DNA from: Mobula hypostoma
Lineage: Eukaryota
Assembly: GCF_963921235.1 (NCBI RefSeq)
Contig: NC_086107.1
Coordinates: 100,318,001-100,382,000, forward strand
Direction: 5' to 3'
Length of the DNA: 64,000 nt
Positions 3,516-45,200 of this stretch are shown here, one piece after another. Every line of letters begins with the position of its first letter. Position 1 is the first letter of the stretch. The position numbers were made by a program, and so were the translations under genes. Below the pieces are notes generated by a model, which was not told the origin of the DNA, searched no databases, and was given only the letters and a program-made list of their open reading frames with translations.

Positions 3516-3704
3516 CTGATCCAAAAAAAGACCAATTATAGATACAAACTCAACTTATAACAGAGTACAAGGAGTGTTTCACCACTTCCATGGGATGACC
3601 AGATCTCAGCATTAAATGCAATGCCAGTCTGCTCATCCTCAAAAACTGACATGGTTGTGATCCGGTAAAAGACTGCCCACAACTCCTAAAACAAAAACAC
3701 CCAC

Positions 3705-3990
3705 TGGCATGGTGGCAATGCAATTGGCACAACCCTTTACAACTCTTGCCAGTCTCTGTAAGGAGTTTGTACATTCTCCCCGTGACCACATGGGTTTCCT
3801 CTGGGTGCTCCCCTTCCTTCGCACAATCAAAAAAAAGTTGCACAAGTTAGGGTCAGTGAGTCGTGGGCATGCCATGTTGCTGCTGGAAACATGTTGACAT
3901 TTGCAGGCTGCCCCCAGCACGTTCGGGACACCAACAGTGCATTTCACTGCATGCTTCGATGCACGTGTGACAAATTAAAGCTACCTTCTT
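3705..3990 (+). mobile_element. tRNA-derived V-SINE/HE1-like SINE (degraded)
   Basis: V-domain-like ggagtttgtacattctccccgtgaccacatgggtttcctctgggtgctcc. Confidence 0.7.
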
Positions 3991-4006
3991 TATCCTTAAA
4001 ACTTAC

Positions 4007-4265
4007 TCTGTGTAAAGTTGTGCTGGAACGTAACTGAGGTAGATCCAGTAGGCGCGGTGGTGGAGACGGTGGCTTCTGGTGCAAAGCTCAGCAGGTTGAG
4101 TGGCAGCTGGAAGGGAAGGGAAACAGGAACCAGACTGCCCAACATGCTGAATGCTGCCGCCGTGTTCAAGGATGCAGACGTCGCATTGAGATTTGTTACA
4201 TTCAGGGGGGATGGCATGAGAGTCAGCGGTGACGTGTTTGCCAACAATGTTGATCCAGAAGTCAC
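4007..4265 (-). CDS. UBN1/UBN2: Ubinuclein exon (259 nt, 0/1): [25 protein letters not shown]...[16 protein letters not shown]...FQHNFTQ
   Basis: ORF 3996..4265; acceptor ctccctttccag, donor gtaagt; UBN2-like C-terminal motif. Confidence 0.9.
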
Positions 4266-7200
4266 CTGGAAAGGGAGGTAAAAAGAAATGAATGCAAAAA
4301 GGAAATAAAGATATCATGGAATCCTCCTCTAAAGTATTTTCTGAACCAAACATTTCATTGCTAACCAAGTTCATTTACTGACTGGGTAAGATGACAACCT
4401 GCTACGAGGATAGCAGCTCCTGCCCATCAATTGTTAAGCACTGACCCCACTTGAATGTAGACACCAGCCACGCACAAACTAATCATACACTGCTGAACTC
4501 AACTTTCAGCCATTGGAGCAGTGAGCCAGTCGGTTGTTTGAAAGGAGAACAAAGTTTAAAGATAAACACACAAAATGCCAGAGGAACTCAGCAGGCCAGG
4601 CAGCATCACTGGAAAAGAGTAAACAGTCAACGTTTTGGGCTGAGAACCTTCATCAGGAATGGAGAGGAAAGGGAGAAGTCAGGGTAAGAATATGGGGGGA
4701 GATGAGGAAGAAGTTCAAGGTGGCAGGCGATAGGTGAAACAAAGAGCTGGGAAGTTGATTGGAGAAAGAGATAAAGGACTGGAGAAGGGAGAAAGAGATA
4801 AAGGACCGGAGAAGGGAGAATCTGATAGCAGAGGACAAAAGAAAGAGAAGGGGATGAAGACCAGAGTTAGGTGATGGGCAGGTGAGAAGGGGTGAGAGAG
4901 GGAAACAGGAATGGGGTATAATTACCAGAAGTTCGAGAAATCAATGTTCATGCCACCAGGTTGGACGCTACCCAGACGGAATATAAACTTAAAGATCATT
5001 TGGGTAGTTTTGGTGGGAGGCTCCACCAGGAATGGCCTCAAGCCCGGCTTCGAGAGGAGGAGGGGTGGATGGGGCTAGCAACCCCATCCAGTAAAAACCC
5101 AATGTGACAGAAATGCCAACAGAAGTTCCAAAGACCTCATTCCTGGGAGATCAAGGATACACCACGATGACTACATCTGGAGACAGTGTGAAAGACTGCC
5201 CCAGGTCAGGGGACTGAGGCAACCTTCTATCAGCAGCCTAAGGCCCAGTAGGGGTGAGGAGCTTAATTAGGTTGGTGGGAGGGTGAAGGTGGGGGAAGAG
5301 AGAGGAGACGAGGGGTGGGGGGAGGGAGCAACAGCACATTGCAACTGATTGAAGTTCCACCTGCTTGGGAAGAACCTGTCTTTGCAACAAAACATAGTCT
5401 AAAAGACAAGAAGGCAGGGAATCACGATGTTGAGGGTCATTACCTGGATACCAGCGGATGATCCTGAGGCAGAGGAAGTTCTGTGAAGGGAGGGCAGCAT
5501 TTTTATAGCAACCTGAGCACCACTTCCGGTCCCCCCACTCACATTAGTCCTTGTGCCAGCTCCGGTCGGGCTGCCCCTGTTAGCGGCCGAATTGCTCACA
5601 GTCCCGGTCCTGCTGACAGAGGCGCTGGAGCTGACGGTGCAGCGGCTGGTGGTGCTGGGGCCCACTGATCCGGCAGCACTGCTCCTCCCTGCTGCTCCAC
5701 TGCTCTTGACGGGCACCCCGCTCGTGCTCAAGCTGCTGCGGCTGACTGTGGCGGCCGCGCCGGTTTTGCCGGGTGTGGCGGGACCGGAAGGGCTGGCCAG
5801 TTTCTGAGGCACTGAGGTTTTTTTCACAAGGGACGCTGACTGCTGTTGACCGATGGCCGAGCTGGCGGATGACGGCCTGTTGGAGAGTTTGGCACTGCCT
5901 TGCCTGCTGGCGGAGCCCCCGCCCGGATTACCCGTCCCCGCTGACACACTCTGGCTCCCTGTGCTGGAAGTGGTGGCAGTCTTGAGAGGGCCAGCCATGG
6001 TAAACGGAGGCTTGAAGCCTTGCACCGAGGTGCTGACGGGTACCGTGGCTTTCGGCAAGTAACTGCCAGAGGTAGATGGGCTGACGCTCGTCCGAGAGGC
6101 CAAACTGTGGGGGACGTGTGTGCTGCTGGTGGCCGAGGGGGCAAACGATGTCTGGTAGGCAGCCGGCTTCTCTGACACCTGCGGCAAGTGACTCGAGAGC
6201 AGGTGCTGCGGACAGGTGTTCAGCTTCACCACAGGGTTCTGGTGAACCTTGCTGATGACGTGTGAGGGAGACGTGAGGCTGTTGTGATGCACGCTGGACT
6301 GGGGGGACTGCTTGTTGATTTGGGCCTGCGACTGGCTCTGCCTCTGTGCACCAGACTGCTGCTGTTTGGCCGTGCAGGCCACAGAAGGAGCCTTGGGTGC
6401 CTGCGGCGAAGGAGCTGTGTAGCCAGCTATCAAGCTGCTCATTCCTGGTCGACCTGCATCCTGGAATTTCTTGGTGCTTGAACTGTGACCAAACAAATGA
6501 CTGAAGGTCGAAGGTACGGGGGAAAGTGTGGATGCTTTCGGAGAGGGTGTGGTCGCCTTTGCTGACGGTGTTGTCACCTTCGGAGAAGGCGTGGTCACTT
6601 TTGGAGAGGACGTGGCTTCTTTTGGTGATGTGGCAAGTTTTGGGGATGATGCGACAAGTTTTGGGGAGGATGCGACAAGTTTTGGGGAGGATGCAGCTTC
6701 TTTTGGAGAAACTGTCAGAGGTGTGGCCTTGGCCACAACCTTTTTATCCTCTTTCATCATAGGCTGTGGCCGTGGTGTGCCTGGGACAGAATTATTTACA
6801 ATTCTGGTGGTCTTGGGTGTGCTGTTGAAGACAGACAACGCATCTGACACAGATTCTAAGGAAGGGGGTTTAATGGTTAGATCCTCATCCAGAGAATCAT
6901 CCAAGTAAATAGTGTCTTGGTTTGGGGTACAACTGGAACTCGAGATATTGATAGATGTGATGTTGCCCATTGGCAGCCCCTTCAGCCCAGCATCGGCAGG
7001 CGCAGAAAGCTTCTGTTCTTTCTTTGGGCTTAAATCCTATTTAAATGGGAAAAAAAAAGCACAAAAATGTGACATGTTAGCAACTGTAAAAGTTGTCAGA
7101 TAACCTCAACTCCCACCCAAATTTCACAATAACCTTTTGCGGGACAACTTTTCTTTTAACTAACACACACAAGATGCTGGAGGAACTCAGCAGGCCAGGC

Positions 7201-21230: not shown

Positions 21231-21279
<49 letters not shown>

Positions 21280-24200
21280 GATGATGAGAAATTTAAATGT
21301 GAAAAAGCACTATCAGGAGTAATTTATTGCTAAGAAATAGAAGACCACAGACGAAACACTGGTAAAAAGGATTAGAATGGATGGGTAAACAACAGGAATT
21401 CTGCAGATGCTGGAAATTCAAGCAACATACATCAAAGTTGCTGGTGAACGCAGCAGGCCAAGCAGCATCTATAGGAAGAGGCGCAGTCGACGTTTCAGGC
21501 CGAGACCCTTCGTCAGGACTAACTGAAGGAAGAGTGAGTAAGGGATTTGAAAGCTGGAGGGGGAGGGGGAGATGCAAAATGATAGGAGAAGACAGGAGGG
21601 GGAGGGATAGAGCCGAGAGCTGGACAGGTGATAGGCAAAAGGGGATACGAGAGGATCATGGGACAGGAGGCCTAGGGAGAAAGACGGGGGGGGGGTGACC
21701 CAGAGGATGGGCAAGAGGTATATTCAGAGGGACAGAGGGAGAAAAAGGAGAGTGAGAGAAAGAATGTGTGCATAAAAAGGAGTAACAGCTGGGGTACGAG
21801 GGGGAGGTGGGGCCTAGCGGAAGTTAGAGAAGTCAATGTTCATGCCATCAGGTTGGAGGCTACCCAGACGGAATATAAGGTGTTGTTCCTCCAACCTGAG
21901 TGTGGCTTCATCTTTACAGTAGAGGAGGCCGTGGATAGACATGTCAGAATGGGAATGGGATGTGGAATTAAAATGTGTGGCCACTGGGAGATCCTGCTTT
22001 CTCTGGCGGACAGAGCGTAGATGTTCAGCAAAGCGGTCTCCCAGTCTGCGTCGGGTCTCACCAATATATAAAAGGCCACATCGGGAGCACTGGACGCAGT
22101 ATATCACCCCAGTCGACTCACAGGTGAAGTGATGCCTCACCTGGAAGGACTGTTTGGGGCCCTGAATGGTGGTAAGGGAGGAAGTGTAAGGGCATGTGTA
22201 GCACTTGTTCCGCTTACACGGATAAGTGCCAGGAGGGAGATCAGTGGGGAGGGATGGGGGGGACGAATGGACAAGGGAGTTGTGTAGGGAGCGATCCCTG
22301 CGGAATGCAGAGGGGGGGGGAGGGAAAGATGTGCTTAGTGGTGGGATCCCGTTGGAGGTGGCGGAAGTTACGGAGAATAATATGTTGGACCCGGAGGCTG
22401 GTGGGGTGGTAGGTGAGGACCAGGGGAACCCTATTCCTAGTGGGGTGGTGGGAGGATGGAGTGAGAGCAGATGTACGTGAAATGGAGGAGATGCGTTTAA
22501 GAGCAGAGTTGATAGTGGAGGAAGGGAAGCCCCTTTCTTTAAAAAATGAAGACATCTCCCTCGTCCTAGAATGAAAAGCCTCATCCTGAGAGTAGATGCG
22601 GCGGAGACGGAGGAATTGCGAGAAGGGGATGGCGTTTTTGCAAGAGACAGGGTGAGAAGAGGAATAGTCCAGATAGCTGTGAGAGTCAGTAGGCTTATAG
22701 TAGATATCAGTGGATAAGCAGAGGATAAGAATGGATGGGTGTTTAATGGGCTTCAGAGATGGGGTGGGCCCGTATCTGTGCTGTACGACTGTGAGGAAAC
22801 AAAACTATAGAGAAAGGAAATGTTCTTAGGTAGTATATTTTTAAAACAATGTCGATGAGGCCAACCTTAAAAGAATCATCTGACTAATATAATTTCAATA
22901 CTGTTTTTTTGCTACTTCTGTTATCAGCTGTAAATCAGGACACGAAGTATTCTGCCATGTACTTGGCTTTGTGTCATTTCTGAGAATGCAGAAGGATAGA
23001 TTTGAATCAAGTTATCTTCCAACACAGAGTGTAGACCATAGGATGAAATGTTTTATGTATATGTTTCAAATTTAGCATAGAAAAGTATATTTTATGGAGA
23101 AAATAACAGAACAACTTCATATCTTAAAAAAAAAACTGCAGTTTACTGAAGCACGTGTACTGACTGTTCAGTAACCTTGGTCATAGGAGGAACTGATACA
23201 AGCTATGAGTCGCATCACTAGTCTAGTTCAATCCTTTTCTTTTTATTTAACTACCTTTAAATCCACTTCTGGGGAAACGAGAAGTTAGTGCAGCAGTACA
23301 GCATCAAGGTCAAACTCTGGTCTGTCAGCCTCTCCAACAATTGAGAGTCAATAATAAAATTCATTCATCTGAAGGGCATCTCAAAAACAGAATTTGGTGC
23401 AGGTATTAAAAACTAACCAAGGAATAGAGATAAAATGAGAGAAAGCAGCTACAACAAAGGAGATACAATAGAACAGACAACACTTCAGATTCACCTCAGG
23501 ACATAATAAAGTGTTTTTAAAAACACAAACATGAGGATGCTGGAAATTCAAGCAACACAGATCAAAGTTGCTGGTGAACGCAGCAGGCCAGGCAGCATTT
23601 CTAGGAAGAGGTACAGTCGACGTTTCGGGCCGAGACCCTTCGTCAGGACTAACTGAAAGAAGAGCTAGTAAGAGATTTGAAAGTGGGGGGGGGGGAGACC
23701 CAAAATGATAGGAGAAGACAGGAGGGGGAGGGATGGAGCCAAGAGCTGGACAGTTGATTGGCAAAAGGGATATGAGAGGATCATGGGATAGGAGGCCCAG
23801 GGAGAAAGAAAAGGGGGGGAACCCAGAGGATGGGCAAGGGGTATAGTGAGGGGGACAAAGGGAGAAAAAGGAGAGAGAGAAAAAAAATGTGTGTATATAA
23901 ATAAATTAACAGATGGGGTACGAGGGGGAGGGGGGGGCATTAGCGGAAGTTAGAGAAGTCAACATTCATGCCATCAGGTTGGAGGCTACCCAGACGAAAT
24001 ATAAGATGTTGTTCCTCCAACCTGAGTGTGGCTTCATCTTTACAGCAGAAGAGGCCATGGATAGACATATCAGAATGGGAATGGGATGTGGAATTAAAAT
24101 GTGTGGCCACTGGGAGATCCTGCTTTCTCTGGCGGACAGAGCGTAGATGTTCAGCAAAACGATCTCCCAGTCTGCATCGGGTCTCGCCAATATATAGAAG

Positions 24201-27200
24201 ACCACATTGGGAGCACGGGACGCAGTATATCACCCCAGCCGACTCACAGGTGAAGTGTCGCCTCACCTGGAAGGACTGACTGGGGCTCTGAATGGTGGTA
24301 AGAGAGGAAGTGTAAGGGCATGTGTAGCACTTGTTCCACTTGCAAGGATAAGTGCCAGGAGGGAGATCGGTGGGGAGGGATGGGGGGGACGAATGGACAA
24401 GGGAGTCGCGCAGGGAGCAATCCCTGCTGAAAGCATGGGGGGGAGGGAAAGATGTGCTTGGTGGTGGGATCCCGTTGGAGGTGGCGGAAGTTACGGAGAA
24501 TAGTAAGACCATAAGACAAAGGAGCAGAAGTAAGCCATTCGGCCCATCGAGTCTGCTCCGCCATTTTATCATGAGCTGATCCATTTTATCCTATTTAGTC
24601 CCACTGCCCCGCCTTCTTACCATAACCTTTGATGCCCTGGCTACTCAGATACCTATCAATCTCTGCCTTAAATACACCCAATGACTTGGCCTCCACTGCT
24701 GCCCGTGGCAACAAATTCCATAGATTCACCACCCTCTGACTAAAAAAATTTCTTCGCATTTCTGTTCTGAAAGGGCGCCCTTCAATCCTGAAGTCATGCC
24801 CTCTCGTACTAGACTCCCCCATCATGGGAAACAACTTTGCCACATCCACTCTGTCCATGCCTTTTAACATTCGAAATGTTTCTATGAGGTCTCCCCTCAT
24901 TCTTTTAAACTCCAAGGAATACAGTCCAAAAGCGGACAAATGTTCCTCATATGTTAACCCTCTCATTCCCGGAATCATTCTAGTGAATCTTCTCTGTACC
25001 CTCTCCAACATCAGCACATCCTTTCTTAAATAAGGAGACCAAAACTGCCCACAGTACTCCAAGTGAGGCCTCACCAGCGCCTTATAGAGCCTCAACATCA
25101 CATCCCTGCTCCTATACTCTATTCCTCTAGAAATGAATGCCAACATCGCATTCGCCTTCTTCACTACTGACTCAACCTGGAGGTTAACTTTAAGGGAATC
25201 CTGTACGAGGACTCCCAAGTCCCATTGCATCTCAGAACTTTGAATTCTTTCCCCATTTAAATAATCGTCTGCCCGTTTATTTTTTCTGCCAAAGTGCATA
25301 ACCATACACTTTCCAACATTGTACTTCATTTGCCACTTCTCTGCCCATTCTTCCAATCTATCCAAGTCTCTCTGCAGACTCTCTGTTTCCTCAGCACTAC
25401 CGGCCCCTCCACCTATCTTCGTATCATCAGCAAACTTAGCCACAAAGCCATCTATTCCATAATCCAAATCGTTGATGTACAATGTAAAAAGAAGCGGCCC
25501 CAACATTGTTCCCTGTGGAACACCACTGGTAACCGGCAACCAACCAGAATAGGATCCCTTTATTCCCACTCTCTGTTTCCTGCCAATCAGCCAACGCTCT
25601 AACTTTCCTGTAATTCCATGGGCTCTTATCTTGTTAAGTAGCCTCATGTGTGGCACCTTGTCAAAGTCCTTCTAAAAATCCAAATATACAACATCCACTG
25701 CATCTCCCTTGTCTAGCCTACTGGTAATTTCCTCAAAAAATTGTAATAGGTTTGTCAGGCAGGATTTTCCTTTAAGGAATCCATGCTGAGTTCTGCCTAT
25801 CTTGTCATATGCCTCCAGGTACTCTGTAACCTCATCCTTGACAATCGACTCCAACAACTTCCCAACCACCGACGTCAAGCTAACAGGTCTATAATTTCCT
25901 TTTTGCTTCCTTGCCCCCTTCTTAAATAGCGGAGTGACATTTGCAATCTTCCAGTCTTCCGGAACCATGCCAGGATCTATCGACTTTTGAAAGATCATCG
26001 CTAATGCCTCCCCAATCTCCACAGCTACTTCCTTCAGAACACGAGGGTGCATTCCATCTGGTCCAGGAGATTTATCAACCTTTAGCCTATTCAGCTTCCT
26101 GAGTACTTTCTCTGTCGTAATTGTGACTGCACACACTTCTCTTCCCTGCCACCCTTCAGTGTCCGGTATCCTGCTGTCTTCCTCAGTGAAGACTGATGCA
26201 AAATACTTGTTCAGTTCCTCTGCCATCTCCTCATCTCCCATTACAATTTCTCCAGTATCATTTTCTATTGGTCCTATATCTACTCTCACCTGTCTTTTAC
26301 TCTTTATATACTTGAAAAAGCTTTTAGTGACCTCTTTGATATTATTTGCTAGTTTCCTTTCATAGTTAATCTTTTCTCTCTTAATGACTTTCTTGGTTTC
26401 CTTTTGTAAGGTTTTAAAAACTTCCCAATCCTCTGTCTTCCCACTAATTTTTGCTTCCTTGTATGCCCTCTCCTTAGCTTTAACTTTGGCTTTGACTTCT
26501 CTTGTCAACCACGGTTGTATCCTTTTACCGCTCGAAAATTTCTTCTTTTTTGGAATATACCTGTCTTGCACATTCCTCATTTCTCGCATAAACTCCAGCC
26601 ACTGCTGCTCTGCCGTCTTTCCCGCCAGTGTCTCTTTCCAGTCAACTTTGGCCAGTTCCTCTCTCATGCCACTGTAATTTCCTTTACTCCACTGAAACAC
26701 CGACACATCAGATTTTGGCTTCTCTTTTTCTAATTTCACAGCGAACTCAATCATGTTATGATCACTGCCTCCTAAGGGTTCCTTCACCTCAATCTCTCCA
26801 GTCACCTCCGGTTCATTACACAATACCCAATCCAGTACAGCTGATCCCCTAGTGGGCTCAACAACAAGCTGTTCTAAAAAGCCATCTCGCAGACATTCTA
26901 CAAATTCTCTCTCGAGATCCAGTGCCGACCTGATTTTTCCAATCTACTCGTATGTTAAAATCCCCCACAATTATCATAACACTGCCCTTCTGACAAGCCT
27001 TTTCTATTTCCAGTTGTAATTTGTAGTCCACATCCCTGCAGCTGTTTGGAGGCCTATAAATAACTGCCATCAGGGTCCTTTTACCACTGCTATTCCTTAG
27101 CTCAACCCATAAAGATTCTGCACCTTCCGATCCTATATCACCTCTTTCTAATGATTTAATATCATTTCCTACCAATAAAGCCACACCTCCCCCTCTGCCT

Positions 27201-30200: not shown

Positions 30201-33200
30201 GCGGTTGTTCAATGATTCTGTTATAGTTACTATTCTATAGATTTGTTGAGTTTGCACGCAAGAAAATGAATTTCAGGGTTGTCTATGGTGACATATATGT
30301 ACTTTGAACTTTAAGGAGCAGTGCCGCAGGAAAGCAGCATCCATCATTAAGTACCCGCACCACCCAGGCTATGCTCGCTTCTCACTGCTACCATCGGGAA
30401 GGAGGTACAGGAGCCTTAGTTCCCACACCACCAGATTCAGGGAGTTATTACCATTCAACCATCAGGCTCCTGAACCAGCATGGTTAACTTCACTCACCTC
30501 ATCACTGAACTCACGTCCTTGGTGTTATTTATTTATGAATTGTATTTGCCTGATTTGTCTTCTTTTGCGCACTGGTTGTTTCTCAGTCTTTGTGTGTAGT
30601 TTTTCATTAATTCTATTGTATTTCTTTGTTCAACTGTGAATGCCTCCAAGAAAATGAATCTCAGTGTAGTACATGGTGACAATAAAGTTACTTTGAACTT
30701 TGAAGTGGTCGCACATAATGCATTCCTCACCTATGAAGTCTCTCCAACATTAGGGGTGCAAACGCTAAGTGATTTCCTCAGTCCAGAAATCAGAATTAAT
30801 GGTGATGACCTGTTGCATTGGCAGTCAAGGTCAGCTAATCTTTCATGGTTCTTCAAATTCCACAATGTTACCTGACTCCATCCCTGCCTCAACCCATGTG
30901 CTGCTGAAACTACTGCCTACCCTGTGTTCTCCTGCTTGATTGCCCATCCTTCATAAACCTAGAATCATGTTCCATCATCATCATCATCTTCTTTTTCTTA
31001 AGACAATCGCTGAGGACTGAGGATGAACTGCTTCCAATTCAGTTCTGTTGTGGCTGAGGAGATCTACGTGAGATTTATAGCCTGTCATCAGTGCCTGACA
31101 CAGGCAGATGGGCTCCTTTCCACATTATTACTGGGTTTCTACATGCTCCTAATGGAGAGACCTGAGACTCTTAGTGCCACCTGGGACACTCCATTCTGAG
31201 CAGGCATGGGTCAGTTGGAGGGGATGTTTCCTTCCCTCCAAACCCCCAAGAAGATCCTCAGCATTTTTCTTTCAATCTCCCAATAATCATTTGAATGGAA
31301 ACTCAGTGTCAATTGCTTGCTTCAGGGACCTAAGTGCTGGAAATATAAATTCTATGGTTTGCCCACCAGAGACAACTGGGTGCAATTAGAGCCTCACTGG
31401 AAAAGGACACTGATGTTGATTCATTTTTCCTGTAAGTTGTCTTAGTCACTGAAGAACAGAGGGTGGTGGGGATTACTGCTGACTGAGTAACCATTGCTTT
31501 CTGAGTGGTTTGATATTTTGAACATCTCAAGCTAACACACGAGAGGGTGGTGATCATCATCACTCTATGTTGTAAGAGTCCTGTTCACATTTCACCCCAT
31601 TAACTTACCTAGCTCCCTGCCCAGCAACAATTTCACGCACATAACTTCCTCCAGTTCCACAAAACCCTCAAAATGTTACAGTCCAGTACTTGAAGTTTTG
31701 TGCAGCACTTGGGAGAAAACACTTGGAGAAAGGTGTAAGGATACACATACTTGGCAGACCGGGCCTTTGTGTGTGCTTGCAGTTCTTCCTGGTATTTTAT
31801 CAACTGTGCCGGCATTGCATTTGCCACTGCTTCCTTCAGTTTCTGTGTAGGATCACGTAACCGCTCATCCTGCAAAGGCAACAGAGATGTTGATAAAGGA
31901 ATACAATTCGCACTTCTGTCGTGCATTTACAACTCGGCACACCCCACAGCACAGTCAATGAAGTTGTTTTGAAGTACAGTCTTTGTCATATTATAAGAAA
32001 CATTGCTGCCAATATGCATGCAGCAAACATACACAAACAGCACGCCGATCACATTCTACTTTAGAATATTCGTTGGAGTTAATTATTATCTAGACAGTAA
32101 GGGAAATCCTGCTTTTCAAACAGCGGCACCAGATCCCAGGAAGCAGAAAGGATCTCGTTTTCTTGTTTGAAAGTTAACTTCCATGACAATACCACAAGTA
32201 CTTGGCCTGTCCCCTAAAACCCTCACTTAATTTTTATAGATGCACCGTAGAAAGCATTCTTCCAGGGTGCATCACAACCTGGTATGGAAGTTGTCCTGTC
32301 CAAGACTGGAAGAAGCTGTAGAAGATCATGAACACAGCCCAGCACATCACACAAACCAATCTTCCGTCCTTGGAATCACTTTACACCGCATGCTGTCGGA
32401 GCAGTGCTGCCAGGATAATCAAGGACACGACCCACCCAGCCAACACACCTTTCGCCCCTCTTCCCTCTGGGAGAAGGCTCAGGAGCTTGAAGACTCATAC
32501 GGCCAGATTTAGGAACAGCTTCTTTCCAACTGTGATAAAGACTGCTGAATGGATCCTGACCCGGATCTGGGCTGTACCCTCCAAATATCCGGACCTGCCT
32601 CTCGGTTTTTTTGCACTGCCTTACTTTCCCTTTTCTATTTTCTATTTATGATTTATAATTTAAATTTTTACTACTTACTATTGATTTGTACTCCAGGGAG
32701 CACAAAGCACAGAATCAAATATCGCTGTGACGATTGTACGCTCTAGTATCAATTGTTTGGCAACAATAAAGTATAAAGTACTTCACTGGACTGTCAGCCT
32801 CAAACCACTGGAGTCAGGATTAAATCCCTAATCTCCACAGACTGGGAAGGAAGCAAATTTACTCAGCATAGTTTAACCTCCGTTGGCAGTGCACATAACG
32901 GAGAAGAAATCATGTAAGATTCGAAGGAGGTCATCACCATTTTAAAATGACACATTCTTCACGAATATAAATGTTGATTTTATTTACAATTAAAGAACAA
33001 AAATTATGGAGTTAACTACTGTAAACAACTTGAATCATTTAGAGCAACACACATCAAAGTTGCTGGTGAACGCAGCAGGCCAGGCAGCATCTCTAGGAAG
33101 AGGTACAGTCGACGTTTCAGGCCGAGACCCTTCGTCAGGACTACTAGCTCTTTCTTCAGTTAGTCCTGACGAAGGGTCTCGGCCCGAAACGTCGACTGTA

Positions 33201-36200
33201 CCACTTCCTAGAGATGCTGCCTGGCCTGCTGCGTTCACCAGCAACTTTGATGTGTGTTGCTTGAATTTCCAGCATCTGCAGAATTCGTGTTTATGAATCA
33301 TTTAGAGGTTCTCTCCAACACAATTAAAGCAGTTGGGAGGGGCAGACCTGGGAGTATATCATGAGCATAGTGACAAGTTTACACAGGCAATTTCTACTAT
33401 AAGCATTAACACAGGAATTTTTAATGGAAAAGTTTGCAACTGCAACATTGACCGAAAATAAGGCAACGTCTATAAGAGCGCACATTTATTATTTTAGGTA
33501 ATCTATTACTACTGAAAGAACAATAGAGATGGTTCCAGATGATGAAACCTTGAACAAAAAAAAACCTCCTGGAGGAACTCAGCAGGTCAAGCTGACGCCG
33601 ATGCAGGAATTTGTCTCAAAATGTTGACAATTCCTTTCCCCCTCCACAGTATGCTGTGTTCCTCTAGCAGATTGCTTGCTGCCCAAAGCACCTTCACAAT
33701 AGGAACTAGAACGGTATGGTTTGTTCAGCCCTGAGTAAAACAAACAATCTAGAATCTAGACTCTAGATCCTCTGTTTGGGAATTTCACGAGCTCTGATTG
33801 CTGCTTCCAGTCTGATCCACAGCCTAGGAATTGGGCAGGATGCTTAAAGTTTGTGCTAATGAACTTCAGGGAAACACTTCTGTTCAAGATTTATGATTGT
33901 TCAATGTCAGTGTAAAGGAGAACAAAATAATTGTTATTCTAGCTCCAAAGCAGCACAATAAGATAAAGAACACAATAATAAAAAAACACAATAAACATAA
34001 ACACATAAGATAGCTTATGTAAACCAATTTCCCCCGGGATCAATAAAGGATGACTATGACTATGTACATAGATCGATTGCATGTCCATAAAGCGGTGCCA
34101 TGCACAGGAGTGTCTGTACATAAGGTGGCTGACAGGAAATGATGAAGGAGTGGTGGTGGGGTGTGTGAAGGGGAGGCTTGCTGCTTGAGGTAACTATTTC
34201 TGAGTCTGGTGGTCCTGGTGTGGATGCGGTGCAGCCTCCTCCCTGAAGGGAGTGGGGCAAACAGCCCGTGAGCAGGGTGGGTGGGATCCTTCATGATGTT
34301 ACTGGCTCTCTTCCAGCACCTTTCTGATGGTGGGTAAGCTGGTGCCAGTGATGCACTGGGCAGGTTTGAACATCTGTTTAGAGCCTTCCTGTCCACCACA
34401 GCGCAGCTTCCATACCAGGCAGTGATGCCGCTTGTTAGGATGCTCTCTACTGGGCATCTGTAGAACGAAATGAGTGTGGGTATGCACAATCCTGCTCTCT
34501 TCCAGCCTTCTCAGAAAGTAGAGGTGTCAGTGAGCTTTTCTGACTGTGCAGAATGTGTTCCGATGTCATAAGAGGTTGTGCAAGGTGTGAGTTCTTTTGA
34601 AGTTGATACCCATCTCCTTTGTCTTGTTGACATTGAAGGAGAGTTACTTGCCAGGCCTCAAGCTCTTCCACTTTCTCTCTATACACCATCTCATCGGTGC
34701 TGGTGACAAGCCCCACCAATGTCATGTTATCGGCGAACTTGACAATGTGATTATCCGGGTGCTTAGTTGTGAGGTCATGTGTGACCAGAATGTACAACAA
34801 TAGGCCCAGCACACAGCTCTGGGGGGGGGGAGGGGGCACCCGTGTTGAGGATGACGGGGAGCGAGGGGTCATTGCGCATCCTGACTATCTGGGTTTCTGG
34901 TTGGCATTCGTACTTTTTGATTTTGCAATGGGTAATATATAGTGATGTTGTTGGAATTCTCATGTGACCTGCAGGGCTTCAGAGTCAGCTACTAATTGAT
35001 AGATAAAGACAGATAATTGATTAACCTTTTCAGGAAAGACCATCCAATATAGGCCAAAAGCTGCGATGCACAACTAGTGATCCATGAAGATCATTCTGCC
35101 CCCAAACCACATTTTATCGACTTTCACACAAGCCAAGAGGTGGCTTCAGAAATCAGTCAGTTAACACACACAGGTTAAGCTTTCTCACTTCCATGGTATC
35201 TGAAGTTCTTCAAACAAAAATGGATAAGGAACAATCAAACCTGTTTGTATTTGAATCTAGGTTTCCGCCTGTAAACTCCCTTTCCTCAAGCAGATCTGTC
35301 ATTATTGGTTATGGAAGCAGCAGTTTAGTGTTTGCTTAATGTTCTTGAAAGCTCTCTAAGCTCATGCTTAATGTTCTTGAAAATTAATAGACTGATTTTG
35401 AAAGAAAATGAGAAATAAAGTTCCCTTTTAATTATATATATTTCGCTTCCTTTCCCTCTCCAGCAGCAACCTAATCCATGAATTCAGCTCCCAAAATCAA
35501 GACCTCGTGCTCCTCTGATAGCCAAAAGAGCCGCACCCATAGGCTTTCTGTGAAAAAAACTTAACTTTGTGAATGCCGCCGACAATCAGTAACAATCAAC
35601 AATTACAACAAATCAGGGGATTAATAATTAAATTTTAAAATTAAAGCCTTAGAAAGATCAGACACTTAAAATACTGCAAAATACAAAAAAAATTTAAATA
35701 CATTTAAATTAAACAGTTTTAACTCAGAGTTCAAATATGTAAATTACAAATATGTAAATAGAACCTTTCTCTCCTCATTGAAATTAATAATTACTTAATG
35801 CGCACCCAAGCCAATCACTGTGCTCCTATATCCAACATTATTGCAGCCAAGACCCATGCAAAACAGGAGAGGCAAGGCAAGAGTGACTTCAATACAGCAC
35901 TTGAAAGAAGGAGCCCTGTTAAAACAGGTCAATGGGAATGGAAACTGGTCAAGAGGTCTCCACTCACATAAAGGAAAATGGTTATGTGGTTTACAGAGAG
36001 ACATTTACCTAAGCCCCAAGACAGCAGCAGGAGTTCCTCAGGGCACGGCCCAAGACTCAACCACCTTAACTGTTTTATCAACGACCTTCTCTTCTTAAAA
36101 GTTGAGTGGTGTCGTAGCAACAACCTTGCACTCAGTGTCAGTAAAACCAAACAGCTGATTGTGGACTTCAGAAAGGGTAAGACGAGGGAACAAACACCAG

Positions 36201-42200: not shown

Positions 42201-45200
42201 ACCTCCTTTTCTTTCATGTCTATCCCTCCTGAATATTGAATATCCCTGAACGTTGAGCTCCCATCCTTGGTCACCCTGGAGCCATGTCTCTGTGATCCCA
42301 ACTATATCATAATCATTAATAACAACCTGCACTTTCAATTCATCCACCTTATTACGAATGCTCCTTGCATTGACACACAAAGCCTTCAGGCGCTCTTTTA
42401 CAACTCTCTCAGCCCTTATACAATTATGTTGAAAAGTGGCCCTTTTTAATGTGGCACCTTCATAAAAAAGGGTAACAAAGATAACCCAGGTAGTTATCAA
42501 CCACTGAGTCCAACATGAGTGGTAAGAAAGTTACTGGGAACAAAAAAAATCTAAGAGACAGATTTAATTCTGATTTAGAAAAGCAGGGATTAACTATTTA
42601 CATCTATATTAGCGCGCAGATTGGAAAAGCTTTTACCTGGCCTAATCCATTTAGACCAGACTGGATTTATTCAACAAAGACAAACACAGGACAACATAAG
42701 GAGAACTCTGCACATATTAGAACAGGTTAATAAGAACGAGACAGAGACAATGGTAGTAGGATTGGACGCTGAGAAAGCTTTTGATTCGGTTAGTTGGGCA
42801 TTCCTATACAGAGTGTTAGGAAGATTCGGCTTTCAAGAAAGGTTTATTAAAGTAATTCAGACTCTGTATGACAGCCCAACAGCCCGAATTAAGATAAATG
42901 GGGACCTCTCTGACTCCTTCATTTTAGAGAGAGGCACTAGACAGGGATGCCCAATTTCTCCTCTCCTTTTTGCGCTATATATTGAACCACTTGCCCAACT
43001 AATAAGACAGAGCGAAATCGTAAAAGGTATCAAGGTGGCAGGGATTGAACAGAAAGTGGCGTTATTCGCAGATGATGTTTTGGTCTATCTGAGTGTACCA
43101 GAAAAATCATTTATAGGATTGTTTACACTGTTGGATGACTTTGGGAAAATATCAGGTTATAAAATAAATGTAAAGAAAACGCAGGTTATGTCCCTAAATT
43201 ATACACCATCCAAAAAATTGCAGGATACATACCATCTTAAGTGGGAAGCTAAATCATTAAAATATTTAGGAATAACCCTGCCGAAGGATCTTTCAACACT
43301 GTCACAGGTAAATTATGGGCCATTAATCTCAGAGATAAAAGCAGATATGCATAGATGGAATCTTATCCCCTTTTTAAGTTTAAATTCAAGGATAAATACT
43401 ATAAAAATGAATATTCTTCCTCGGTTATTATATCTTTTCCGTACTTTACCAGTGGAGGTGGATGATAATCAATTCAGGGAATGGGACAATTGGATTTCCC
43501 GCTTCATTTGGCAAGGAAGGAAACCTAGAATTCGATATAACACCTTACAGTTAGGGAAGGAAAGAGGAGGTATGGTTCTTCCTTGCCTGAGAAATTATTT
43601 TTATGCCTCACAGATAACCCCTCTGTTATATTGGTGTAATAGGGAATATAAGGCTAGATGGAAGGAAATAGAATTTGGATTAGTTGACAGTTTTCCTCTT
43701 CAGGCCTCAATAGCTGACAAAGGATTGATGGCCCAGTTGGAAAAATTTAATAATGCTTGGATAAATCTTACATTAAAAGTATGGCAGAAGGTGGTTAATT
43801 CATGTGGAATTAATAACATGCTAAAACTCTTTAGATGGTGTGCATATGATACCGAATTCCTTCCCAACAGAGGAGATAAAAGATTTGAGCTATGGATAAA
43901 GAAAGGTCTTACAACCTACCTCTCATTTATAGATAAAAGAGTATTACAAAGTTTCCAAATCCTGCAGGACAAACATGGCCGAGAACATAATGACTTTTTT
44001 AGGTACCTTCAAATACGAAACTATGTTAACCAGAGTTGTAGATATACAGACCTATCAACAGTAGAATTAGAATTTTTCAAGATTCTGAATTCGGCTTGCA
44101 GTTCAATACCTAGTAAATCAGTTTCTCGCCTATATAATGCACTCTCCCATGCTAAAAATGTAAATACACTGTATATTAAAGAGAAGTGGGAGAACGAAGC
44201 GGGGTTGGTACTTTCAGAGGAGGCTTGGGGGAAAATCTGCAGCTTTCAATGGTCCTCGACTAATTCTTTGACTTGGAGAGAACATTGTTGGAAAAACATT
44301 ATAAGATACTTCAAGACCCCATATCAGGAAAAATATAAAGATACAAATGTGATGTGTTGGAGAAGGTGCGGCTCTAAGGAGGCAAATCATTTTCATATTT
44401 TCTGGGATTGCCCTAAATTAAGTCTATTTTGGGAAGGTATTCATAGAACATTAGTTAAGGTACTTAGGTCCCAGATACCTCTGAACTTTGAGACGCTCTA
44501 TTTGGGGCATATATTGTTCCTTGAACAGAAGGAAGATATAAAGTTGCTGCAGGCCCTCTTAGCGGCAAGTAAGAAATCAATCACTAGAAAATGGCTAAAT
44601 CCAATACCACCTACATTAGAAGATTGGTACGAAATTATCTTGGAAATATTTAAAATGGAAAAGTTGACCTACTCCCTGAGAACTCAAAAAGAAACATTTT
44701 ATCAAATCTGGAATAAATGGATTGAATATATAACCCCAATGCGAGCAGACTTTAGATGACTCTCCTAATGATTTATATTGCTCTTCTCATCAACACAGTA
44801 ATATTGCTAACGTAAGCACCCCTAGTCTAAATGTTTGTTGTGTTTTTTTTTTGGAAAATAGAGAATTAACACAAGTAAAGGGAAAGATTTGGGAAAGGGA
44901 TAAAAAAAAAATGAAAAAATTAAGTAAATAAGTACACAGGGATTGAATAATTATGTCTGCGGGCAGGAACAAGCACGAACAAATTGGGATATAAACACCT
45001 ACAATGGTTGGTATATAGGCTTGTATGCAACATTTTGGACCAGTGGAAATGGTCCAGCAGGGTTGTATGGAAACTATTATTACCATTTTTCTTAACAACT
45101 AATTTCATTACTTAGCCTAATAGGTTAGATTTACCACAGTACATAATTATCTATTTAAATGTTTATTTTGCTTTTATATCATCTCAATGTGTACTTAAGA

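What the first reader, a model, noticed from the sequence alone, without database searches (positions are those of the whole stretch)
33031..33307. TSD-flanked ~250-bp fold-back element carrying a hammerhead on each strand
Seen: 33045-33293 consists only of Penelope 3'-terminal sequence arranged as ~100-bp inverted arms with about 2 mismatches and a ~17-nt spacer. It is flanked by a perfect 14-bp TSD (tgaatcatttagag). Each arm has an intact hammerhead (33107-33142 minus, 33162-33197 plus) and there is no coding capacity. Inference: a single recent insertion, either a 5'-inverted very short PLE copy or a member of a non-autonomous ribozyme-bearing family (retrozyme- or MITE-like) mobilised by PLE RT/GIY-YIG. 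Transcription in either direction gives one ribozyme plus its own antisense, a possible built-in hairpin switch and a long dsRNA in the host pre-mRNA.
Basis: partly seen in the sequence, partly recalled or inferred. Interest (0 to 1): 0.72.

Follow-up and report, generated by a model that had tools for sequence, protein, structure and literature searches.

The report
Minimal head-to-head Penelope retrotransposon insertion
This 249-bp hairpin-shaped repeat is an ordinary by-product of how Penelope-like retrotransposons insert, two short copies of the element's 3' end joined head to head, and is one of thousands of such scars in this genome, not a new self-propagating element.

Summary
Window 33045-33293 is a fold-back of Penelope-like element (PLE) 3'-terminal sequence: 101-nt arms, 98% complementary, a 17-nt spacer, and a perfect 14-bp target-site duplication. 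The self-propagating family reading is not supported.

- An exact-pattern scan of the 3.48-Gb genome found 2731 head-to-head pairs of the same ribozyme-bearing segment. Their junctions are very heterogeneous. The tail-to-tail control gave 5.
- In 50 position-ordered fold-backs, 48 have the ~33-nt PLE "tail" on exactly one arm and none have it on both. The other arm mostly ends about 34 nt earlier (41 of 48). TSDs cluster at 13-15 bp. Either arm may reach further 5'.
- The autonomous RT + GIY-YIG element with the same 3' end lies in the window at about 21.4-27 kb on the minus strand.
- Published work already describes inverted 5'-truncated copies, a one-sided 30-40-bp tail, nicking and extension of both target strands, and two internal RT start sites.

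The most likely mechanism is two short cDNAs, one primed from each nicked strand, joined at their 3' ends. The hammerheads are PLE minimal motifs with no Rfam hit, buried in a -218 kcal/mol hairpin. The insertion is shared with a related organism, so it is not very recent.

The parts
33031..33044 (.). Left copy of the 14-bp target-site duplication (TGAATCATTTAGAG).
   Evidence: family D2: two copies, 100% identical, 263 nt apart. The last 2 nt (AG) can also be read as part of the inverted arm.
33045..33144 (-). Inverted, 5'-truncated, untailed copy of the PLE 3' end. It corresponds to reference positions about 340 down to 240 and contains a min-HHR motif at 33107-33142 with U at position 11.1.
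   Evidence: Its outer end at reference position 340 matches the usual end of untailed arms (41 of 48 fall within 325-350).
33143..33144 (.). Junction. A 2-nt 'TA' can be assigned to either arm (palindromic microhomology).
   Evidence: the two HSPs overlap by 2 nt (gap -2). Sequence read.
33145..33261 (+). Direct 5'-truncated copy of the PLE 3' end, reference positions about 221-340. The first 16-17 nt form the 'spacer', which is native sequence contiguous with this arm. The min-HHR motif lies at 33162-33197, with the predicted cleavage site between 33193 and 33194.
   Evidence: Motif features were compared with Cervera and de la Pena 2014.
33262..33293 (+). The PLE 'tail', a 32-nt extension present on this arm only.
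   Evidence: the right arm reaches reference position 370; 48 of 50 fold-backs have the tail on exactly one arm. Literature.
33294..33307 (.). Right copy of the 14-bp target-site duplication.
21385..27000 (-). Source-type autonomous PLE in partial tandem. RVT_1 lies in 25672-26943 and 24595-25671, and GIY-YIG in 23940-24590, followed by a CT-rich UTR, an HHR at 23646-23618 and the 3' end at about 23530. A 5'-truncated second copy follows, with GIY-YIG in 21814-22752 and an HHR at 21516-21488. It is not part of the insertion but shows what the arms derive from.
   Evidence: RVT_1 scores E 2.6e-16 and 1.1e-05. The two GIY-YIG hits (E 5e-4 and 4e-3) are both just under Pfam's gathering score.

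Best explanation
The element is the smallest form of a normal Penelope-like element (PLE) integration product, not a family of its own.

Proposed steps (inferred unless marked otherwise):
1. The PLE RT/GIY-YIG protein nicked both target strands about 14 nt apart. This stagger gave the TSD.
2. Each exposed 3'-OH primed reverse transcription of the element's RNA near its 3' end. One strand started at the outer start site and so carries the ~33-nt 'tail'. The other started at the inner site about 34 nt upstream and has no tail.
3. Both cDNAs stopped after about 100-150 nt.
4. Their 3' ends were joined at a 2-nt TA microhomology and each was copied on the other. This left an inverted duplicate with a 17-nt asymmetric centre.

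Shown here: the anatomy, the genome-wide regularities and the link to an RT + GIY-YIG element. Taken from the literature: nicking and extension of both strands, and the two start sites. Inferred: the order of events and the coupling of the two start sites.

After insertion the element is most likely inert. Its two min-HHR motifs cannot pair with a second sense copy in one transcript, and they are locked in a long duplex.
For: Identity of the arms:
- Both arms match the 3' end of a PLE that encodes RVT_1 and GIY-YIG in the same window.

The arrangement is orientation-specific and very common:
- There are 2731 head-to-head places, against 5 for the same two 14-mers in tail-to-tail order with the same 0-120 nt gap. 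The 14-mer occurs 94,687 times in all.
- In 20 position-ordered occurrences of the 14-mer (18 loci), at least 7 loci are head-to-head pairs.

The junctions are heterogeneous (listing).

In the 50 position-ordered fold-backs L009-L058:
- 48 have exactly one tailed arm, 0 have two and 2 have none.
- 41 of the 48 untailed arms end at reference position 325-350.
- An exact TSD of 10 bp or more is present in 38 of 50, with lengths clustering at 13-15 bp.

Coupling of the two start sites:
- All 7 further pairs also have exactly one tail.
- Unpaired copies are mixed: 4 tailed, 6 untailed and 1 unclear, of 11.
- Independent choice of start site could give 'one of each' in at most half of events. P(>=48 of 50 at p = 0.5) = 1.1e-12.

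Which arm reaches further 5':
- The tailed arm in 14, the untailed arm in 16, neither (within 2 nt) in 13, and 5 not scored, out of the 48. Two separately primed cDNAs would give this pattern.

Target sites are AT-rich: TSD AT fraction 0.69 against 0.57 for the loci overall.

Literature:
- Craig et al. [quoted passage not shown]
- Arkhipova et al. 2013, PMC3846280 (passages): the tail sits on one of the inverted pLTRs, the inverted pLTR is 37 bp shorter, head-to-head is the most frequent arrangement, and palindromes occur at the junctions.
- Frangieh et al. 2024, PMC11167929 (main text): the purified PLE protein cleaves and extends both strands. RT starts at two adjacent internal sites whose spacing corresponds to the tail. 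AT-rich sites are preferred, a dimer is predicted, and the HHR is not needed for insertion.
Against: - For this one element the spacer is contiguous with the tailed arm. That is also what simple snap-back self-priming of a single cDNA predicts, so the element alone cannot separate the two mechanisms.
[quoted passage not shown] That does not by itself predict the strict one-of-each rule seen here, so the coupling is my inference.
- Junction positions were taken from BLAST HSP ends against a single natural reference copy and are only good to about +/-2 nt.
- 21 of 45 scored junctions show 1-40 nt not assigned to either arm, so joining is not always by microhomology.
- The central junction of the window element is not independently confirmed. 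Public-run contigs break inside the repeat.
- Both GIY-YIG Pfam hits are below the gathering score.
Confidence: 0.8

Rival explanations
1. Snap-back (self-primed) second-strand synthesis. A single cDNA is primed at the tail site. Its 3' end folds back on itself at the TA, and the RT copies the cDNA back until it is blocked about 34 nt before the cDNA's 5' end.
For: - The window element has the spacer contiguous with the tailed arm, as this model requires.
- Arkhipova et al. 2013 proposed self-priming from palindromes at inverted junctions.
- 13 of the 43 scored fold-backs are symmetric to within 2 nt.
Against: - In 16 of 43 scored fold-backs the untailed arm reaches further 5' than the tailed arm. 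A fold-back of a tail-primed cDNA cannot produce that.
- The three other loci with the window's own junction are of this kind.
- Purified PLE protein extends both target strands.
Confidence: 0.15
2. A non-autonomous, self-propagating fold-back family (retrozyme- or MITE-like) mobilised in trans by PLE proteins.
For: - The junction pattern recurs: 9 places with up to 2 mismatches.
- 4 of the 8 inspected loci, counting the window, share the junction and have different TSDs.
- PLE pLTR sequences can mobilise unrelated inserts in trans (Arkhipova 2013).
Against: - These 4 loci are a tiny fraction of at least 2731 fold-backs with many junctions.
- The other 3 loci have the opposite spacer-to-tail relation and a different subfamily base in the spacer.
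- Single junctions recur 53 and 57 times elsewhere, so recurrence is not evidence of copying.
- All untailed arms end at about reference position 340-351, the second start region, rather than at random truncation points.
Confidence: 0.03
3. Two independent PLE insertions that landed head to head by chance, or a palindromic assembly artefact.
For: - The family is very abundant: 94,687 exact 14-mers.
- Long palindromes are a known type of assembly error (recalled, not tested here).
Against: - One perfect 14-bp TSD brackets the whole unit.
- Head-to-head outnumbers tail-to-tail by 2731 to 5 at the same spacing.
- Contigs from the same species and from a related organism reach from unique flank into the element on both sides, at the same borders.
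Confidence: 0.02

Closest known systems
Canonical EN+ Penelope-like element insertion architecture: inverted 5'-truncated pLTR plus a one-sided 30-40-bp 'tail' (Evgen'ev and Arkhipova; Arkhipova et al. 2013; Craig et al. 2021)
   Same: - Head-to-head inverted copy at the 5' end.
- Tail on one end only, with the inverted copy about 34 nt shorter.
- TSD of variable length.
- Short palindrome or microhomology at the junction.
- An HHR motif in the repeated part.
(searches compared)
   Different: Here both copies are truncated to about 100-150 nt. Nothing of the element body or ORF remains, and the whole insertion is a 249-bp hairpin. The papers I read show full or long elements. I did not find a genome-scale count of such minimal fold-backs in the passages read.
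PAc (Poseidon of Anolis carolinensis) in vitro TPRT (Frangieh et al. 2024, PMC11167929)
   Same: - Both target strands are cleaved and extended.
- RT starts at two adjacent internal sites whose spacing equals the tail.
- AT-rich targets are preferred.
- The HHR is dispensable for insertion.

   Different: - In vitro, no strand preference for either start site was seen. In this genome the two arms of a pair almost always use different sites (48 of 50, and 7 of 7).
- The host and the PLE family are different. Here the start sites lie about 70 and 104 nt downstream of the HHR cleavage site, in non-coding sequence.
L1 'twin priming' 5' inversions (Ostertag and Kazazian 2001; recalled, not read here)
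   Same: The 3'-OH of both target strands primes cDNA on the element RNA. The two cDNAs are then joined, giving an inverted 5' segment inside one TSD.
   Different: - In L1 the inverted segment comes from a region upstream of the direct segment and is primed by chance microhomology.
- Here both arms copy the same 3' region, starting from two fixed sites.
Minimal PLE hammerheads, 'min-HHR' (Cervera and de la Pena 2014, PMC4209133)
   Same: - Helix I of 4-5 bp.
- Core CUGANGA and GAAA.
[quoted passage not shown]
- A G10.1-C11.1 pair (plus-strand copy).
- Palindromic 15.2-16.2 (ACGU) with no helix III loop.
(one search compared)
   Different: - The minus-strand copy has G10.1-U11.1.
- In this fold-back the second copy is antisense, so the same-sense dimer those authors propose cannot form within one transcript.
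Animal non-LTR retrozymes (de la Pena and Cervera; Li et al. 2026 preprint, 10.64898/2026.07.22.740005)
   Same: Non-coding, HHR-bearing and related to PLE pLTRs (abstract and passages).
   Different: Retrozymes are direct tandem arrays thought to give circular RNAs. This is a single inverted pair with a TSD, with no tandem repeat.

Membership tests
EN+ Penelope-like element (insertion product) | Sequence derived from an element that encodes an RT followed by a GIY-YIG endonuclease. | tested here: met
   The arms are 93-95% identical to the 3' end of the window's minus-strand element. That element has RVT_1 (E 2.6e-16) and GIY-YIG (E 5e-4 and 4e-3, both just below the Pfam cut-off).
EN+ Penelope-like element (insertion product) | A 30-40-bp 'tail' extension present at one end only. 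| tested here: met
   The 32-nt tail at 33262-33293 is on the right arm only. The same holds in 48 of 50 sampled fold-backs. The feature is defined.
EN+ Penelope-like element (insertion product) | An inverted 5'-truncated copy adjacent to the 5' end, all within one TSD. | tested here: met
   with a 14-bp TSD.
Hammerhead ribozyme (Rfam type I/III models) | A match to a curated covariance model. | tested here: not met
   No hammerhead family was reported at gathering score or at E<=10 on 551 bases.
PLE minimal hammerhead (min-HHR) | Conserved core, short helix I, an extra nucleotide between 9 and 10.1, a G10.1-C11.1 pair, and palindromic 15.2-16.2. | tested here: met
   Read against the description. 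The plus-strand copy meets all features. The minus-strand copy has U at 11.1.
PLE minimal hammerhead (min-HHR) | Self-cleavage activity. | not testable with these tools
   Published min-HHRs cleave poorly, and only as dimers or with the element's protein. Here the motif lies in a -217.8 kcal/mol hairpin.
Non-LTR retrozyme | Direct tandem repeats, each carrying a sense HHR. | tested here: not met
   The only direct repeat at the element is the TSD, and the two HHR motifs are on opposite strands.
MITE-like or self-propagating fold-back family | Many copies with the same internal structure and junction but different target sites. | tested here: not met
   - 2731 fold-backs have heterogeneous junctions.
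- Only 3 other loci of 8 inspected share this junction, and they have the opposite tail arrangement.
miRNA precursor (MIR6136, mir-3923, mir-676 and others) | A score at or above the Rfam gathering score. | tested here: not met
   The best hit scores 58.4 bits against a gathering score of 99. These are generic long-hairpin matches.

The most novel reading that the evidence does not exclude
The thousands of minimal fold-backs in this genome may be fossil snapshots of aborted PLE integrations. Read that way, they suggest that in vivo the two target strands are primed in a coupled way: one cDNA from each of the two RT start sites 34 nt apart, probably on one RNA held by a protein dimer. The cDNA 3' ends would then be joined to each other. 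This would explain the long-puzzling inverted pLTRs and the one-sided tail of Penelope-like elements. It would also give a large natural data set for testing the mechanism.
Probability: 0.4. Interest if true: 0.5.

Novelty: new member of a known kind. Interest (0 to 1): 0.25.

Why it matters
The element itself is ordinary, one more PLE insertion scar with no sign of function.

The survey made to evaluate it has some value for PLE biology. Short head-to-head products are very common in this genome:
- at least 2731 exact-pattern cases;
- at least 7 of 18 sampled loci.

They follow a strict 'one tailed arm, one untailed arm' rule, and either arm can be the longer one at the centre. That pattern fits priming on both target strands from two start sites, as seen in vitro, better than simple hairpin self-priming. 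How PLEs build their tandem and inverted structures is still described as undefined in the papers read.

There is also a practical point for annotation. Such hairpins can be mistaken for MITEs, miRNA precursors or new ribozyme elements.

Tried and rejected
- **Rfam.** No family reached gathering score over the whole window. At E<=10 on 32900-33450 there were only sub-threshold miRNA-hairpin hits and no hammerhead. MIR6136 turned out to be a Panax ginseng miRNA family (search listing only), so I dropped it.
It gave 9 places. I judged it uninformative once searches showed that single junctions recur more than 50 times.
- **HHR self-cleavage as the source of the cDNA ends.** Fold-backs centred on the GTCGAC palindrome, whose centre is the predicted cleavage site, number 53. 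A junction elsewhere numbers 57. There is no special excess, so I rejected the idea.
- **Fold of a single arm.** The result was unremarkable: -39.9 kcal/mol, z = -0.67.
- **Sequencing runs.**
  - No listed holder is on record as RNA.
  - Two runs guessed to be RNA gave repeat-derived contigs over the element.
  - One contig lay on the unique right flank (33348-33496, run X9). This does not show transcription of this locus.
  - No contig spanned the central junction.
  - No empty-site joint (33044 to 33308) was among the 15 joints shown of 681, so polymorphism is not excluded.
  - A-to-I editing cannot be judged from contigs of a repeat this abundant.
- **Earlier findings of this scan.** Nothing was found near this place.
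- **Protein homology, structure and complex tools.** Not used. The Pfam evidence was enough for the question.


Full report
**1. The observation**

- Arms at 33043-33143 and 33161-33261 are 101 nt long and 98% complementary, with 17 nt between them.
- A perfect 14-bp direct repeat, TGAATCATTTAGAG, lies at 33031-33044 and 33294-33307.
- A 32-nt unpaired stretch (33262-33293) follows the right arm.
- The junction string occurs once in the window and in none of 100 shuffles.
- As RNA the region folds into one hairpin of -217.8 kcal/mol, z = -28.

**2. What the arms are**

A 29-mer from the arm recurs at window 21488-21516(-) and 23618-23646(-). Those two sites are the 3' ends of a Penelope-like element (PLE) lying in partial tandem on the minus strand.
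- ORFs with RVT_1 lie at 25672-26943 and 24595-25671, and GIY-YIG lies at 23940-24590.
- A CT-rich UTR and the ribozyme-bearing 3' end follow.
- A 5'-truncated second copy comes next, again with GIY-YIG (in 21814-22752) and the same 3' end.
- Both GIY-YIG hits fall just under Pfam's gathering score. They are two independent copies matching the same part of the profile.

Against the native copy at 21380-21760(-), used as a natural reference, the left arm matches positions 240-340 inverted and the right arm matches 221-370 direct. The 17-nt 'spacer' is therefore native sequence that continues the right arm upstream. The two arms overlap by a 2-nt TA at the junction.

**3. The hammerheads**

Rfam reports no hammerhead, either at gathering score or at E<=10. 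Read by eye, the plus-strand motif is: AGUC / CUGACGA / A / GGGUCUCGGCCC / GAAA / CG / UC, then GACU, spanning 33162-33197.

This matches the features Cervera and de la Pena (2014) list for PLE 'min-HHRs' (passages):
- helix I of 4-5 bp;
- a G10.1-C11.1 pair;
- palindromic 15.2-16.2 with no helix III.

The minus-strand copy carries U at 11.1 (window 33119), a CpG transition. The second arm mismatch (33203/33101) lies outside the motif.

Those authors found that such motifs cleave poorly, and only as dimers. Frangieh et al. (2024) found that the Anolis PLE ribozyme is protein-assisted and not needed for insertion. A transcript of the fold-back in either direction holds one sense and one antisense copy inside a 101-bp duplex. 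I therefore see no basis for a ribozyme switch.

**4. One-off, family or routine product?**

The genome is 3.48 Gb in 200 contigs. The junction pattern with up to 2 mismatches occurs at 9 places. Of the 8 inspected:
- 4 share the junction (the window, L003, L005, L006), each with a different TSD;
- 3 are fold-backs with other or more complex centres (L002, L004, L007);
- 1 has no inverted arm (L008).

In L003, L005 and L006 the spacer continues the untailed arm. In the window it continues the tailed arm.

An unbiased pattern, the 14-mer covering helix I and the core in head-to-head order with 0-120 nt between, matched 2731 places with very diverse centres.
- The same 14-mers in tail-to-tail order matched 5 places.
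- The 14-mer itself occurs 94,687 times.
- Two arbitrary single junctions occur 57 and 53 times.

Recurrence of one junction is therefore expected without any copying of fold-backs.

**5. Regularities of the fold-backs**

I fetched the first 50 places on contig C1 (15 as loci from that call, 35) and compared them with the reference copy.
- 48 of 50 have exactly one arm reaching reference position 368 or beyond (the tail). None has two, and 2 have none.
- 41 of the 48 untailed arms end at position 325-350.
- Exact TSDs of 10 bp or more flank 38 of 50, with lengths clustering at 13-15 bp. TSD AT fraction is 0.69, against 0.57 for the loci overall.
- Among the 48, the tailed arm reaches further 5' in 14, the untailed arm in 16, neither (within 2 nt) in 13, and 5 near-perfect palindromes could not be scored.
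- At the centre, the two HSPs overlap in 18, abut in 6, and leave 1-40 unassigned nt in 21, of 45 scored.

A second sample used the first 20 occurrences of the 14-mer on C1 that were not in a pair. These represent 18 loci.
- At least 7 of the 18 loci are head-to-head pairs: 4 with a mutated partner 14-mer and 3 with arms of 0.3-1 kb.
- All 7 have exactly one tail.
- The 11 unpaired copies are mixed: 4 tailed, 6 untailed, 1 unclear.

If each end chose its start site independently, 'one of each' could not exceed half of events. P(>=48 of 50 at 0.5) = 1.1e-12.

**6. Comparison with the literature**

- Craig et al. [quoted passage not shown]
- Arkhipova et al. 2013 (passages): a 31-bp tail on one of the inverted pLTRs; an inverted pLTR 37 bp shorter than the direct ones; head-to-head as the most frequent arrangement; palindromes at the junction. 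They proposed self-priming.
- Frangieh et al. 2024 (main text): purified PLE protein cleaves and extends both target strands. RT initiates at two adjacent internal sites whose spacing is the tail. AT-rich sites are preferred and the protein is predicted to be a dimer.

The window element shows every one of these traits in miniature. It is therefore a member of a known kind.

**7. Mechanism**

*Best reading (confidence about 0.8 for a routine PLE integration product that is not a family; about 0.6 for the specific steps).*
1. Staggered nicks 14 nt apart expose two 3' ends.
2. One end primes at the outer start site and the other at the inner one.
3. Both cDNAs abort after about 100-150 nt.
4. 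Their 3' ends anneal at TA, and each is extended on the other.

This accounts for the one-sided tail, for either arm being the longer at the centre, and for the TSD.

*Rival.* Snap-back of a single tail-primed cDNA fits this element alone. It does not fit the 16 of 43 fold-backs in which the untailed arm is the longer.

*What is inferred.* The coupling of the two start sites is my inference. One RNA held by a dimer, with one start site per protomer, would explain it, but no experiment in vitro has shown it.

**8. Age and state**

Contigs of a related organism (run X5) run from unique flank into the element on both sides, at the same borders: 32754-33065 with 4 differences, and 33265-33650 with 9 differences. 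The insertion therefore appears to predate the split of the two organisms. The arms differ at 2 of 101 positions. No evidence bears on expression.

**9. Verdict**

The family, retrozyme and switch ideas are not supported. The element is ordinary. The survey adds modest in vivo support for two-strand, two-site priming by PLEs.

Noticed in passing
window 21385-27000 (-): A PLE in partial tandem. RT and GIY-YIG ORFs (with frame breaks) are followed by a 5'-truncated second copy, and each copy ends in the HHR-bearing 3' end. A (CAT)n microsatellite lies just downstream, at about 21250-21290.
   Followed up: partly
window 42594-44759 (+): A 721-aa open frame with a strong RVT_1 match (E 1.2e-35). 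It is a different retroelement, probably a LINE. I did not examine it further.
   Followed up: no
loci L061/62, L068, L071-L074, L077/78 (genome contig C1): Many copies are an internally deleted derivative of the PLE. Reference positions of about 357-912 are joined directly to about 3696-4665, so the RT region is missing. The same breakpoint recurs, which suggests a genuine non-autonomous subfamily.
   Followed up: no
50 fold-back loci L009-L058: The inner ends of the arms pile up at reference positions 240-244 (17 of 90 arm ends), just 5' of the hammerhead helix I. Part of this is forced by the search pattern. It could also be an RT pause or a TA/CTAG microhomology hot spot.
   Followed up: partly
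window 33108-33196, both strands: Sub-threshold Rfam hits to miRNA hairpin families: MIR6136 at 58 bits against a gathering score of 99, plus mir-3923, mir-676 and others. This shows how PLE fold-backs could be mis-annotated as miRNA precursors.
   Followed up: partly
window 32700-32795 and 33564-33595: Very high summed contig depth in all four runs laid. These flanking segments belong to other abundant repeat families.
   Followed up: no
L002 (G000:C21:157556290-157559318): A three-part structure: an inverted arm, then a second short inverted piece (reference positions about 272-240), then a direct arm. It suggests more than one template switch in a single insertion. The short piece ends near the predicted HHR cleavage site.
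   Followed up: no
window 33006-33301: ATG ORFs of 96 aa (+) and 88 aa (-) run through the palindrome and encode near-identical peptides, because the antisense of the PLE 3' end is open. I take them as chance.
   Followed up: no
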